Origin: a virus
Lineage: Duplodnaviria; Heunggongvirae; Uroviricota; Caudoviricetes
IMG/VR virus record: IMGVR_UViG_2671180458_000009
Length of the DNA stretch: 4,458 nt
Direction: 5' to 3' (one strand)
Both the position numbers and the translations under genes were made by a program. Positions 1-4,458 of the stretch are shown here, piece after piece. How positions within the stretch are numbered: position 1 is the first letter of the stretch; every line of letters starts with the position of its first letter. The notes beneath the pieces were generated by a model, which saw only the letters and a list, made by a program, of their open reading frames with translations, had not been told where the DNA came from and ran no database searches.

Positions 1-186
1 GAAACCATGGCATTTCTGAACCAGTTAATGCTGTACTTCTGGACGGTGGGCTGTGTTCTGTATCGTCTTTCGGGTGGGTACAGGGCAGTGCGCGATTGCT
101 GGCGCAGGCAGATTGATAAAAGGGCCGCAGAGAAAATCAGCGCCAGTCAGTCAGCCGGAAGCAAACCCGAAGAGCCGCTCATTTAG
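1..186 (+). CDS. Possible 3' end of an upstream gene, or a 59-aa small membrane protein if it starts at ATG 7 (MAFLNQLMLYFWTVGCVLYRLSGGYRAVRDCWRRQIDKRAAEKISASQSAGSKPEEPLI)
   Basis: Frame 1 is open from base 1 to TAG at 184-186. It is absent from the ORF track, probably because it is just under the length cut-off. One hydrophobic helix-like segment (FLNQLMLYFWTVGCVLY) is followed by a basic/charged tail. No upstream context is available to judge a ribosome-binding site. Confidence 0.3.
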   Translation, partial: ETMAFLNQLMLYFWTVGCVLYRLSGGYRAVRDCWRRQIDKRAAEKISASQSAGSKPEEPLI

Positions 187-226
187 CGGCAACTTTCTTA
201 ACAACCCTTTTCAACGAGAAAATCCC

Positions 227-472
227 ATGTCAGAAATCACATCCCTGGTCACTGCAGAGGCAGTGAAGGAAGTCCTGCGCTCTGAAGAAGTCCTGAGCGC
301 ACTGAAACAGAAACTTCGCCATAACCTGGAAGCGCGTCTTGATGCAGAAGTGGATGCCATTCTGGATGAACTGCTGGGCGCACCGGCAGCTCCGGAGCCG
401 GAAGGCATCGCGGGTGAGGGGAGTGCTTCAGATAGCGGTGAACCCGCACCTGACAGCGACATGATGATGTAA
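227..472 (+). CDS. Hypothetical small acidic protein, 82 aa: helical N-terminal part and Asp/Glu/Pro/Gly-rich C-terminal tail ending DSDMMM
   Basis: First ATG of the 53-472 frame lies downstream of the competing frame-1 ORF; a weak GAGA sits ~10 nt upstream. The tail ([29 protein letters not shown]) is strongly acidic and low-complexity. It is co-oriented with, and 76 nt upstream of, the holin. I recognise no family. Confidence 0.45.
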
Positions 473-548
473 GCATGCGCAAGGGACCATCGGTGTGTGC
501 CGGTGGTCTTTATATTGTTGTGAGCTTCCGGATTGCGGGAGACGGGGT

Positions 549-764
549 ATGTACCAGATGGAAAAAATCACAACAGGTGTGTCATACACCACGTCAGCGG
601 TGGGAACGGGCTACTGGTTCCTGCAGTTGCTGGACAGGGTTTCCCCGTCTCAGTGGGCGGCAATAGGCGTTCTGGGGAGTCTGCTGTTTGGGCTGCTGAC
701 ATATCTGACGAACCTGTATTTCAAAATCAAAGAGGACCGGCGTAAGGGCGCCCGGGGAGAGTGA
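549..764 (+). CDS. S: Class II holin (pinholin), phage 21 S21-like, 71 aa with an alternative internal start at 558 (68 aa)
   Basis: The translation [71 protein letters not shown] closely matches my recollection of phage 21 S21 (two TMDs, C-terminal KIREDRRKAARGE-like tail). GGGAGA lies 6 nt upstream of ATG 549. Met1 and Met4 form a dual-start motif. The ORF-track start at 495 is an upstream in-frame extension and unlikely to be the real start. Confidence 0.9.
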
Positions 765-767
765 ATA

Positions 768-1090
768 ATGAACCATGAAGAAATGAATCAGCGCTTCAGT
801 CGCCTGGAAAATGAAATTGCTGAACTGAATNNNNNNNNNNNNNNNNNNNNNNNNNNNNNNNNNNNNNNNNNNNNNNNAAGAACAATAAAAAACAGGGGCT
901 GATGCAGCGCATTGGTCGTTGCATGGGGTATCTGCAGGTAGCCGCTGAGATTGAAGCGCTGGCCAGTGGTGCGGACAAGGATTCAGTTGTGCGGGAGGCA
1001 CTTCTTCGTGATTTTGATCATCCGCCCTTTAAAAAAGTGCCGGCTTACTGGCTTCATCCCGGACTGACTTATCTGAAAGTGCGTATTTAG
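768..1090 (+). CDS. Uncharacterised protein between holin and endolysin, possibly YdfR/DUF1327-like, ~107 aa; reading frame interrupted by a 47-nt N-run
   Basis: ATG at 768 is 3 nt after the holin stop; 21 codons (MNHEEMNQRFSRLENEIAELN) run exactly to the N-run at 831. After the gap an open frame from 878 (KNNKKQGLMQRIGRCMGYLQVAAEIEALASGADKDSVVREALLRDFDHPPFKKVPAYWLHPGLTYLKVRI) ends at 1090. The two parts are out of frame by 1 with the N length as given, so the N-run is probably a gap or mask of arbitrary length. The same holin/endolysin-flanked position is occupied by ydfR in the E. coli K-12 Qin prophage as I recall; homology is inferred from position and size only. Confidence 0.5.
831..877. 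other. Run of 47 ambiguous bases (assembly gap or masked sequence)
   Basis: Directly visible as n characters in the sequence. It creates artefactual X-containing ORFs on both strands (594-1001 minus, 796-978 minus). Confidence 0.99.
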
Positions 1091-1660: not shown

Positions 1661-1858
1661 GCAGAATATTTTGCTGAAAAATGACGTTGGTCAACGCGGA
1701 CGGATAACACGAAATCCTGCGAACTGGCAAAACCTAAGTGAATAAAAGTAAAAAAACCGTTTGTTAGCAGCAGGTGGGGTTTTGTGTTTCCTGACTCCGG
1801 AAAAGTCAAAGGAGAAAGTGTGTTTGATTTTAGCAAACTGATTCGGGAGATTTGAGTG

Positions 1859-1957
1859 ATGGCTGAAAAATTATCCACCTGGAAGTTCATCCTTATCTGG
1901 CTGGTGTTTGTGATTATGGCCCCCGGTTATTTCATCGGTCAGATACGCTGGTGGTGA
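1859..1957 (+). CDS. Candidate 32-aa hydrophobic mini-protein ([32 protein letters not shown]), translationally coupled to Rz
   Basis: ATG at 1859 is preceded by GGGAGA with ~8 nt spacing. A single predicted TM helix has aromatic/basic flanks. The TGA stop at 1955-1957 sits 1 nt before the Rz ATG at 1959. It is too short for the ORF track; coding status is unproven. Confidence 0.35.
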
Positions 1958-3415: not shown

Positions 3416-4445
3416 CTTTGCTGTTGTTTGTGGAGTGGCACTTCGTGGGCTTTTACGCCCACTGCCTGTAACCACCGTTGAATGGGCCGATCAAAATTAT
3501 TATTTGCCCCCGGAGTCCTCTTATCTTGCTGGGCGGTGGAAGACGTTGCCCTTTCAGGTGGCAATAATGAACTGCATGGGTAATGACCGGATCCGCACAA
3601 TTAATCTTATAAAATCAGCTCGAGTCGGTTACACCAAAATGCTGATGGGCGTTATTGGTTACTTTATTGAGCATAAAAACCGTAACAGTCTTCTGTTTCA
3701 GCCTACGGATTCTGCCGCTGAAGATTTTATGAAGTCTCATGTGGAGTCAACATTACGGGATGTTCCCTGTCTGAAAATTCTTTCCCCTTGGCTGGGGCGT
3801 AAGCACCGGGATAACACACTGACATTAAAAAGATTCACGTCCCGTGTGGGGTTCTGGTGCCTGGGTGGTGCTGCCGCCAAAAACTACCGTGAAAAATCAG
3901 TGGATGTGGTCTGCTATGACGAACTTTCCTCATTCGAGCCGGATGTCGAAAAAGAGGGCTCGCCAACCCTGCTGGGGGATAAGCGTATTGAGGGCTCGGT
4001 ATGGCCAAAATCCATTCGCGGCTCGACGCCAAAAATAAAAGGCTCCTGCCAGATCGAAAAAGCGGCCAACGAGTCGGCACATTTCATGCGTTTTTATGTG
4101 CCCTGCCCGCACTGTGGGGAGGAGCAGTATCTGAAATTTGGCGATGAATCCACGCCTTTTGGCCTTAAATGGGAGAAGGACAGCCCCGAAAGCGTTTTCT
4201 ATCTCTGTGAACATCATGGCTGCGTGATCCATCAGTCTGAGCTTGACCAGAGCAACGGGCGGTGGATCTGTGAAAACACGGGCATGTGGACCCGTGACGG
4301 CCTGACGTTTTTCAGCGCTGCGGGTAATGAAATTCCGCCGCCGCGCTCCATCACTTTCCATATCTGGACGGCGTACAGTCCGTTCACCACCTGGGTACAG
4401 ATAGTCTATGACTGGCTGGATGCACTGAAAGATCGTAAGCGTTAA
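3387..4445 (+). CDS. A: Terminase large subunit gpA, N-terminal 352 aa only (ATPase region with Walker [10 protein letters not shown] and [10 protein letters not shown]); ends at TAA 4443-4445, possible truncated gene or pseudogene
   Basis: Collinear with recalled lambda gpA from residue 1 (MN..., [96 protein letters not shown]). After IVYDWL the sequence diverges from lambda (IVKDWMKTKGDTGKRK...) and hits a stop 13 nt before the window ends. Lambda gpA is 641 aa as I recall. Confidence 0.88.
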
Positions 4446-4458
4446 CGGAGTGCCGTAT

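What the first reader, a model, noticed from the sequence alone, without database searches (positions are those of the whole stretch)
227..472. 82-aa protein with a strongly acidic, disordered C-terminal tail immediately upstream of the lysis cassette
The translation has a helical N-terminal part and a tail rich in Asp/Glu/Pro/Gly/Ser (…[29 protein letters not shown]). Small highly acidic phage proteins are often DNA mimics or protein-interaction decoys (anti-restriction, anti-defence, or regulators of host DNA-binding proteins). The late-operon slot just before the holin is a known site for accessory (moron) genes. I recognise no family, so the function is open.
Basis: partly seen in the sequence, partly recalled or inferred. 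Interest (0 to 1): 0.45.

Follow-up and report, generated by a model that had tools for sequence, protein, structure and literature searches.

The report
Known DUF826 gene in a two-gene prophage cassette
The small acidic-tailed protein is real but already catalogued (Pfam DUF826, function unknown): it is one half of an optional two-gene cassette that always follows a sialic-acid esterase gene in E. coli prophages, and nothing supports the idea that it is a DNA mimic.

Summary
The ORF at 227-472 is a real gene under purifying selection. It encodes 81 aa (not 82): two confident helices (residues 2-50) and a disordered, Pro-rich tail of 30 residues with 7 Asp/Glu and no Lys/Arg. The family is almost confined to Escherichia/Shigella prophages and occurs in about 18% of complete E. 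coli genomes.

New here:
- DUF826 never occurs without the upstream membrane protein DUF1378 (window 7-186).
- The pair is optional: 37 of 74 prophages with a 97% or more identical holin lack both genes.
- Where flank allowed a check, the pair always follows a NanS-p-type esterase gene. In Mu-like prophages the trio sits far from any lysis gene and is still under purifying selection.
- The tail varies in length and sequence but keeps its acidity and a hydrophobic C-terminus (MMM/MML/TML).

Best reading: a late-expressed cytoplasmic adaptor paired with DUF1378. Its target is unknown. The DNA-mimic or anti-defence reading has no support. This is an ordinary conserved hypothetical gene, now with sharper context.

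The parts
227..472 (+). DUF826 gene (81 aa plus stop), the finding itself
   Evidence: Pfam PF05696 E 4.9e-39 over 1-75/75. phrog_311 E 1.3e-36. 100% identical to the RefSeq gene in NZ_CM143728.1. pN/pS 0.32 in the N-domain.
227..379 (+). Conserved helical N-domain (residues 1-51; helices 2-17 and 20-50). The invariant core is R31, N33-L34-E35, R37-L38-D39-A40-E41-V42-D43 and I45-L46.
   Evidence: AlphaFold2 pLDDT 93-98 for residues 21-50. Invariant columns in the 24-sequence alignment. The core is kept in 37-43% identical relatives.
380..469 (+). Disordered acidic Pro/Gly/Ser/Ala-rich tail (residues 52-81) ending in the hydrophobic tripeptide MMM
   Evidence: pLDDT 40-55. 7 D/E, 0 K/R, 5 Pro. 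Across the family the tail is typically 30-45 aa with 6-12 D/E. It has no K/R in 56 of 59 tails and ends in MMM, MML, TML, AMM or TTL in 56 of 59.
7..186 (+). DUF1378 gene (59 aa), the obligate partner. It has an N-terminal hydrophobic segment, an invariant SGGY motif and a basic helix (RAVRDCWRRQIDKRAAEK).
   Evidence: Pfam PF07125 E 4.3e-33. Present next to DUF826 in 90 of 90 loci with flank. Both genes present in 37 and both absent in 37 holin-anchored loci, never one alone. Alignment.
482..511 (+). GC-rich hairpin followed by a T tract (intrinsic-terminator-like) between the DUF826 stop and the holin start. It closes the esterase-DUF1378-DUF826 unit.
   Evidence: 13-pair stem plus T tract. 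Fold of 470-548 is -30 kcal/mol, z = -2.4. Present at the same place in 30 unique sequence variants with compensatory stem changes, and also in loci that lack the cassette.
174..190 (+). Small hairpin spanning the DUF1378 stop codon (GCCGC-TCATTTA-GCGGC). Its significance is unknown.
   Evidence: Consensus scan only. Same sequence in L001 and L002. Not analysed further.

Best explanation
Shown:
- 227-472 is a bona fide member of the catalogued but uncharacterised family DUF826.
- It is the soluble half of an obligate two-gene cassette. Upstream is DUF1378, a 59-aa protein with one N-terminal membrane segment and a basic helix predicted to face the cytoplasm.
- The cassette is optional cargo. 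It always sits directly downstream of a NanS-p-type sialate O-acetylesterase gene, which a 2026 preprint identifies as a capsid-decorating protein in phage phi24B.
- The cassette lies inside the late transcription unit, which ends at a conserved terminator-like hairpin just before the holin.

Inferred:
- DUF826 is made late in lytic growth and stays in the cytoplasm.
- Its invariant acidic helix (E35, D39, E41, D43; net about -4 over residues 31-50) may dock on the basic cytoplasmic helix of DUF1378 (net about +4 over residues 25-45). That would place it at the inner face of the membrane.
- The flexible acidic tail then presents the conserved hydrophobic C-terminus as a short docking motif for a third, unidentified partner.
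- Linkage makes the esterase, or a late-stage process it takes part in, the most likely area of action. The lysis machinery and host defence systems are less likely.
For: Family membership.

Pairing with DUF1378:
- 90 of 90 loci with flank have DUF1378 next to DUF826.
- Among holin-anchored loci, 37 have both genes and 37 have neither; none has one alone.
- The same pairing holds in every divergent context examined.

Linkage to the esterase:
- 68 of 68 loci with at least 2.5 kb of upstream flank have the esterase.
- Two sublineages of Mu-like E. coli prophages carry esterase-DUF1378-DUF826 between the tail-fibre assembly gene (with or without an invertase gene) and com/mom, with no holin nearby.
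- Between those two sublineages pN/pS is 0.23 for DUF826, 0.41 for DUF1378 and 0.37 for the esterase, at pS 0.5-0.8.

Optional status: the esterase stop codon lies about 139 bp from the holin in 30 loci that have no intervening ORF.

Architecture: conserved helices, variable acidic tail and conserved hydrophobic C-terminus down to 37% identity.

Late unit:
- No promoter-like site on the + strand between the esterase gene and the holin.
- A hairpin plus T tract follows DUF826 in both lambdoid and Mu-like contexts.

The esterase as a capsid decorator: bioRxiv 10.64898/2026.04.10.717836.
Against: - No physical interaction was tested. Charge complementarity is read from the sequences only.
- Linkage to the esterase could be inheritance of a contiguous block rather than shared function.
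- The esterase works without the cassette. One esterase clade (26 loci) never has it. L136 has a C-terminal domain 92-97% identical to the one next to this window's cassette, yet has no cassette.
- Esterase homologues in other taxa exist without any DUF826 or DUF1378, since both families are almost confined to Escherichia/Shigella.
- The loci sampled from IMG/VR are not phylogenetically independent.
- The promoter scan is a simple sigma-70 consensus match and cannot exclude a weak or non-canonical promoter.
Confidence: 0.4

Rival explanations
1. The DUF1378/DUF826 pair modulates lysis. It would tune the timing or completeness of pinholin/SAR-endolysin lysis, much as accessory antiholin factors do: a small membrane protein plus a small cytoplasmic helical cofactor.
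For: In lambdoid prophages the cassette sits directly upstream of the P21-type holin (81 of 86 loci). DUF1378 is a small single-pass membrane protein and DUF826 is a small helical cytoplasmic protein. Dispensability fits an accessory modulator. From general knowledge, Mu also lyses with a SAR endolysin, so both host phage types share that lysis mode.
Against: In Mu-like prophages the trio lies at the far right end, next to com/mom and away from any lysis gene, and is still under purifying selection. Half of the phages with a 97% or more identical holin lack the cassette. A terminator-like hairpin separates it from the holin. There is no similarity to any PHROG lysis family.
Confidence: 0.2
2. 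The cassette is a lysogenic-conversion moron. It would be expressed from the prophage and benefit the lysogen, for example through exclusion of other phages, envelope physiology or gut fitness, independently of the esterase.
For: The cassette is optional, mobile between unrelated phage types and confined to E. coli/Shigella. There are up to 6 copies per genome, and about 18% of complete genomes carry it. It lies in the region that also carries stx, TerB and IraM-type cargo. A terminator-like hairpin lies downstream.
Against: No promoter-like site was found upstream of the cassette. It has not been found away from the esterase. There is no match to PADLOC defence models.
Confidence: 0.15
3. One reading: the acidic protein is a DNA mimic or decoy that neutralises restriction or other defence systems, or a host DNA-binding protein.
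For: Net charge is -12.4 in 81 aa. An acidic stripe on helix 2 (E35, D39, E41, D43) is invariant. No other function is known.
Against: - The tail is disordered, Pro-rich and variable in length and sequence, so it is not a rigid DNA-like charge array.
- The folded part has a net charge of only about -5.
- The late-operon position is wrong for a protein that must act on incoming DNA.
- It is not detected in phi24B virions, so it is not a packaged anti-restriction protein.
- The obligate pairing with a membrane protein is unexplained by this model.
- There is no structural or sequence match to any solved protein.
Confidence: 0.06
4. The real product is the longer 139-aa ORF from GTG 53, as annotated in VT2-Sakai (orf43) and phi24B (vb_24B_24). 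The acidic tail would then belong to a larger protein.
For: The frame is open from position 53 in the window. Older phage records annotate it this way. phrog_8301 has 139 positions.
Against: The Pfam domain starts exactly at the Met of ATG 227. The upstream open stretch varies from 8 to 67 codons among homologous loci and is absent in divergent ones. The extension overlaps the conserved DUF1378 gene in another frame. RefSeq annotates the 81-aa form.
Confidence: 0.03
5. DUF826 imitates the eukaryotic ribosomal P-stalk proteins, which have a helical N-domain, an Ala/Gly/Pro/Glu hinge and an acidic C-terminus ending in hydrophobic residues. The P-stalk is the docking site of the Shiga toxin A1 chain, so DUF826 would bind Stx.
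For: There is only an architectural resemblance, recalled from general knowledge of P1/P2 (...SDDDMGFGLFD) against ...PDSDMMM. In the sampled loci stx was found only upstream of cassette-positive esterases (25 of 89 against 0 of 29).
Against: hhalign probability against human P2 is 0.2%. Most cassette-positive loci, this window's prophage and all Mu-like prophages carry no stx. From general knowledge, Stx is exported to the periplasm, whereas DUF826 has no signal peptide. The stx association is probably a lineage effect.
Confidence: 0.02

Closest known systems
Pfam PF05696 (DUF826) / PHROG phrog_311 and phrog_8301, conserved hypothetical proteins of Stx and other lambdoid prophages (e.g. VT2-Sakai orf43, phi24B vb_24B_24, ArgO145 gp75)
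   Same: Full-length match far above threshold. Same size, same position between DUF1378 and holin S, and 91-100% identical alleles in hundreds of phage and E. coli records.
   Different: Nothing: this is a member. The family has no assigned function. The only paper found that names it does so in a single sentence (PMC10462455).
T4 RIII with RI, or other accessory lysis-timing factors (small cytoplasmic helical cofactor plus small membrane protein); recalled from general knowledge
   Same: A small helical cytoplasmic protein encoded beside a small single-pass membrane protein in a phage. Dispensable. Adjacent to a holin in the lambdoid context.
   Different: No sequence relationship was detected to any PHROG lysis family. 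The cassette is retained far from lysis genes in Mu-like prophages. No phenotype is known.
Proteins with an acidic disordered tail ending in a hydrophobic docking tip (E. coli SSB C-terminus DDDIPF, T7 gp2.5, ribosomal stalk P1/P2); recalled from general knowledge
   Same: A folded oligomerisation or binding domain, then a variable flexible acidic linker, then a conserved short hydrophobic C-terminal motif.
   Different: No homology (hhalign against P2 gives 0.2%; there are no PDB sequence or fold hits). There is no OB fold or stalk domain. The partner of the tip is unknown.
   Same: Small size and strong net negative charge.
   Different: Those proteins display acidic side chains on a rigid folded surface and act at DNA entry (general knowledge). 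Here the charge is largely in a disordered, Pro-rich, variable tail. The gene is late and is obligately paired with a membrane protein.

Membership tests
Pfam DUF826 (PF05696) | Score above the curated gathering threshold over the whole model | tested here: met
   132.8 bits against a cut-off of 25, E 4.9e-39, residues 1-75 on model positions 1-75 of 75.
Pfam DUF826 (PF05696) | Typical genomic setting: enterobacterial prophage, just downstream of DUF1378 | tested here: met
   DUF1378 at 7-186. The same order holds in 90 of 90 loci with flank and in annotated phages.
DNA-mimic anti-restriction proteins (Ocr/ArdA type) | Acidic side chains displayed on a rigid folded scaffold that imitates the DNA backbone | tested here: not met
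   7 of the 18 acidic residues lie in a tail with pLDDT 40-55 that is Pro-rich and variable in length. The folded part has a net charge of about -5. There are no fold or sequence hits to solved structures.
DNA-mimic anti-restriction proteins (Ocr/ArdA type) | Present at the moment of DNA entry, through early expression or packaging in the virion | tested here: not met
   The gene lies in the late operon downstream of Q, tRNAs and esterase, with no promoter-like site of its own. No peptides or ORF entries for it appear in the phi24B virion proteome, though the gene is present. The negative proteomic evidence is weak because the protein yields few tryptic peptides.
DNA-mimic anti-restriction proteins (Ocr/ArdA type) | Relief of restriction or defence in vivo | not testable with these tools
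   Needs plating assays.
Phage lysis cassette component (holin/antiholin accessory) | Constant genetic linkage with the holin/endolysin genes | tested here: not met
   Both genes are absent from 37 of 74 loci with a 97% or more identical holin. They are present without a neighbouring holin in Mu-like prophages.
Phage lysis cassette component (holin/antiholin accessory) | Effect on lysis timing | not testable with these tools
   Needs lysis curves of isogenic phages.
Moron (autonomous accessory transcription unit in a prophage) | Own promoter upstream and terminator downstream; expression in the lysogen | tested here: inconclusive
   A terminator-like hairpin lies downstream. No sigma-70-like site was found on the + strand between the esterase gene and the holin. 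The scan is crude, and expression data were not found in the literature.
Head completion protein (label given in three phage records) | Homology to lambda gpW/gpFII-type head completion proteins, or presence in virions | tested here: not met
   hhalign against the gpW-like protein of the same prophage gives probability 0.4%. The prophage already encodes its own head-tail joining proteins. The protein is not in the phi24B virion proteome. The label appears without support.

The most novel reading that the evidence does not exclude
DUF1378 plus DUF826 form a previously unrecognised two-protein device: a membrane anchor plus an acidic-tailed adaptor with a C-terminal docking motif. It would control what happens to the capsid-decorating sialate esterase late in infection. 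For example, it could hold the esterase at the membrane, set the split between virion-bound and free enzyme, or prevent premature self-cleavage. The device would be specific to E. coli/Shigella phages, including the Shiga-toxin phages.
Probability: 0.12. Interest if true: 0.55.

Novelty: already known. Interest (0 to 1): 0.27.

Why it matters
On its own the finding is an ordinary, already catalogued conserved hypothetical gene. The context has some value. The gene sits in the stx-nanS-p-lysis stretch of Shiga-toxin phages, a medically important region, and about one complete E. coli genome in five carries it, often in several copies. It helps to know that it is half of an obligate pair, that the pair is dispensable, and that it travels with the esterase gene rather than the lysis genes. 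A recent preprint reports that the esterase decorates the phi24B capsid. Together these points turn 'unknown ORF' into a small set of cheap experiments: deleting two small genes in phi24B or 933W, and a binary interaction test.

Tried and rejected
- **Structure search.** Foldseek of the AlphaFold2 model against PDB gave no hit, and against BFVD nothing better than E = 1.8. A two-helix model carries too little information.
- **Profile against PDB sequences.** Only chance matches at E 0.4 or worse.
- **Other libraries.** NCBIfam, PADLOC and Rfam gave nothing.
- **Species-representative genomes.** Scanning one genome per species (GTDB) with the family patterns found no relative. This fits a family confined to some E. 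coli/Shigella strains.
- **Are DUF1378 and DUF826 tandem paralogues?** MAFFT kept aligning them collinearly. hhalign probability is 0.7%, so this is rejected.
- **Folding a natural DUF1378-DUF826 fusion (P0073, P0236, P0238) to test for an interface.** Abandoned. MAFFT misplaced the DUF1378 rows, and the structure tool returns no contact or PAE information, so the result could not have been judged.
- **'Head completion protein' label in three records.** No support.
- **Ribosomal P-stalk mimic idea.** No homology, and most carriers lack stx.
- **Literature.** Searches for DUF826, DUF1378 and locus tags gave one passing mention and no functional data.
- **Antisense ORFs** (211-462 and 249-482, minus strand) and the internal +3 ORF at 339-464 have no family. 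They are shadows of the coding frame.

Full report
**What is in the window.** The 4,458 bases are the late region of an E. coli lambdoid prophage. They match the chromosome NZ_CM143728.1 at 99.7% identity. The gene order on the + strand is:
- DUF1378 (7-186)
- the ORF in question (227-472)
- a P21-type class II holin with a dual start (549-764)
- an ORF interrupted by a run of N
- a SAR-type lysozyme (1127-1660)
- Rz with embedded Rz1
- lambda-type cos
- Nu1 and the start of gpA

In the matching genome the genes upstream are Q, a methyltransferase, three tRNAs, TerB, DUF3927, IraM on the opposite strand, and a 658-aa DUF6645 (NanS-p-type) esterase that ends about 150 bp before the window begins.

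**The observation.**
- The ORF runs from ATG 227 to TAA 470-472 and encodes 81 residues, not 82.
- Net charge is -12.4. The last 30 residues hold 7 Asp/Glu, no Lys/Arg and 5 Pro.
- AlphaFold2, using a 24-sequence alignment, gives helices 2-17 and 20-50 (pLDDT 93-98 for residues 21-50) and a tail with pLDDT 40-55.
- The gene is under purifying selection. Over 58 unique alleles, pN/pS is 0.32 for codons 1-51 and 0.62 for the tail.
- ATG 227 is the conserved start. The Pfam domain begins exactly there inside the longer GTG-53 ORF.
- The upstream open stretch varies from 8 to 67 codons between loci, and it overlaps the conserved DUF1378 frame.
- Older records (VT2-Sakai orf43, phi24B vb_24B_24) annotate the long form. 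RefSeq annotates the 81-aa form.

**The family.**
- An exhaustive HMMER pass over 1.84 billion cluster representatives found only 31 representatives.
- Word-indexed searches found 106 clusters with the single sequence and 255 with a profile. All named ones are Escherichia or Shigella, apart from one from Citrobacter farmeri.
- One genome per species across GTDB gave nothing.
- The gene is in 1,002 of 5,426 complete E. coli genomes, with a median of 2 and a maximum of 6 copies. It is in 306 of 50,697 phage records, all Stx, Escherichia or Shigella phages.
- The literature holds one passing sentence on it (PMC10462455).

**Architecture across the family.**
- The N-domain is strongly conserved. 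The core R31, N33-L34-E35, R37-L38-D39-A40-E41-V42-D43 and I45-L46 is invariant among the 24 aligned members of the main lambdoid lineage, and most of it persists in the more divergent relatives.
- The tail varies in sequence and in length, typically 30-45 residues, down to 37% identical relatives.
- The tail always stays acidic: 6-12 D/E, and no K/R in 56 of 59 tails.
- It ends in a hydrophobic tripeptide: MMM, MML, TML, AMM or TTL.
- This is the pattern of a folded binding domain, a flexible acidic linker and a short C-terminal docking motif. It is not that of a rigid DNA-like surface.

**Neighbourhood: the main new result.** I fetched 80 IMG/VR loci by DUF826 and 77 by the holin, and scored the neighbours with tblastn.
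- With enough flank, DUF826 is preceded by DUF1378 in 90 of 90 loci. It is preceded by a NanS-p-type esterase in 68 of 68, and followed by the holin in 81 of 86.
- Among 74 loci anchored on a 97% or more identical holin, DUF826 and DUF1378 are both present in 37 and both absent in 37. Neither ever occurs alone. All 60 loci with 3 kb of upstream flank have the esterase.
- In cassette-less loci the esterase stop lies about 139 bp (30 loci), 275 bp or 372 bp from the holin, with no credible ORF in between.
- Presence follows esterase clade. One clade (26 loci) never has the cassette and 13 clusters always have it. One cluster is mixed: it includes L136, whose esterase C-terminal half is 92-97% identical to the one beside this window's cassette.
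- So the cassette is optional, and the esterase does not strictly need it.

**A natural experiment.** A 39% identical DUF826 (P0121, listed in 910 index blocks) and a 74% related sister (P0270) sit in Mu-like E. coli prophages. These carry baseplate and tail-fibre genes, Gin-type invertase in one lineage, then esterase-DUF1378-DUF826, then com/mom and the host junction.
- No holin is nearby. The next ORF is not a holin.
- A terminator-like hairpin again follows DUF826 directly.
- Between the two Mu-like sublineages pN/pS is 0.23 for DUF826 (N-domain 0.18, tail 0.29), 0.41 for DUF1378 and 0.37 for the esterase, at pS 0.5-0.8.
- The trio is therefore kept intact by selection where it has no link to the lysis cassette. 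The conserved association is with the esterase gene, not with the holin.

**Transcription context.**
- No sigma-70-like site lies on the + strand between the esterase gene and the holin.
- A 13-pair hairpin plus T tract (482-511) lies between DUF826 and the holin.
- The hairpin is present at the same spot in 30 sequence variants with compensatory stem changes. These include cassette-less loci, where homology with the window begins at the hairpin.
- The cassette thus belongs to the transcription unit that ends just before S. It is presumably read by Q-modified polymerase during lytic growth (inference).

**The esterase.** A 2026 preprint (bioRxiv 10.64898/2026.04.10.717836) reports that the phi24B homologue, gp84, is an abundant capsid-decorating protein.
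- It is anchored by its DUF1737 N-domain as hexamers on face-centre hexons, and it cleaves itself after release.
- phi24B carries the cassette.
- The held part of the virion proteome table shows no ORF from that interval and no DUF826 or DUF1378 peptides.
- This is weak evidence that the two proteins are not structural, because DUF826 yields few tryptic peptides.

**Interpretation.**
- Shown: a real gene, a DUF826 member, an obligate pair with DUF1378, optional, esterase-linked, in the late unit, with the conserved architecture described above.
- Inferred: DUF826 is cytoplasmic because it has no signal peptide or membrane segment.
- Inferred: DUF1378 has an uncharged hydrophobic N-terminus followed by SGGY and a basic helix, so by the positive-inside rule its basic part faces the cytoplasm.
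- Inferred: the invariant acidic face of DUF826 helix 2 and the basic DUF1378 helix have complementary charges. I therefore propose a membrane-tethered heterocomplex whose acidic tail presents the hydrophobic C-terminus to a third partner. The target is unknown. I rank the esterase, or a late process connected with it, first (overall confidence 0.4).
- The decoy idea fits poorly with the disordered variable tail, the late position, the absence from virions and the membrane partner.
- Three other ideas were tested and rejected. Paralogy of the two cassette genes gave hhalign 0.7%. The 'head completion' label gave 0.4%. Relatedness to ribosomal P-stalk proteins gave 0.2%.
- stx occurred only upstream of cassette-positive esterases in my sample (25 of 89 against 0 of 29). 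Most carriers have no stx, so I treat this as a lineage effect.

**Verdict.** This is an already catalogued conserved hypothetical gene of E. coli prophages. The DNA-mimic reading is unsupported. The useful additions are the obligate DUF1378-DUF826 pairing, its optional nature, its linkage to the esterase gene rather than to lysis, and the conserved tail logic. Interest is modest.

Noticed in passing
window 482-511 (and the same position in L001, L100, L113 and others): A GC-rich hairpin plus T tract about 40 nt upstream of the pinholin start. It is conserved in 30 sequence variants with compensatory stem changes, whether or not the DUF1378/DUF826 cassette is present. It looks like a conserved intrinsic terminator that insulates the holin from upstream cargo transcription unless Q-modified polymerase reads through.
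   Followed up: partly
window 831-877: The run of 47 N stands for 282 bp in the 99.7% identical genome. It hides the middle of a 185-aa ORF (L002 12768-13325, 'hypothetical protein') between holin and lysozyme. The window's ORFs 768-902 and 902-1090 are its two ends, and the C-terminal part matches phrog_26186/phrog_1085.
   Followed up: partly
window 4435-4458: The last 24 bases diverge from the otherwise matching genome and cut gpA short at 352 aa. They contain GCGTTAACGGAG, which also occurs at 2549-2560 near cos. This may be an assembly or contig-end artefact.
   Followed up: partly
window 1856-1957: A 33-aa hydrophobic ORF ([33 protein letters not shown]) matches phrog_6632 (E 7.8e-20, unknown function). 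Its stop overlaps the Rz start (ATGA). It may be an unannotated small membrane protein of the lysis region.
   Followed up: no
window 549-764; 2179-2364; 2679-2690: The holin has the dual-start motif MYQM typical of S21 (71- and 68-residue forms). Rz1 is embedded in Rz in the +1 frame and has a lipobox (LVVSAC). The lambda-type cosN core GGGCGGCGACCT lies at 2679.
   Followed up: no
L003-L006, L173, L185-L188 (Mu-like E. coli prophages): The NanS-p-type esterase in Mu-like prophages has a different N-terminal domain in place of DUF1737, the capsid-binding domain in phi24B. [quoted passage not shown]
   Followed up: partly
P0073, P0236, P0238, P0110, P0112, P0095 (database proteins): Several singleton database entries fuse DUF1378 to DUF826, and one fuses the holin N-terminus to DUF826. 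These probably arise from frameshifts or deletions. They explain why phrog_8301 weakly matches DUF1378, and they are probably pseudogenes or sequencing errors rather than true fusions.
   Followed up: no
IMG/VR and other loci: In the sampled loci stx genes were found only upstream of esterases that are followed by the cassette (25 of 89 against 0 of 29). This is probably a lineage effect, but it was not corrected for phylogeny.
   Followed up: partly
L013 51-290: A distant DUF826-like ORF on a 1.4-kb contig has only an 8-residue tail and no hydrophobic C-terminus. It lies next to a glycosyltransferase family 25 gene on the opposite strand. It is the only member seen outside the esterase context, but the contig is too short to judge.
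   Followed up: no
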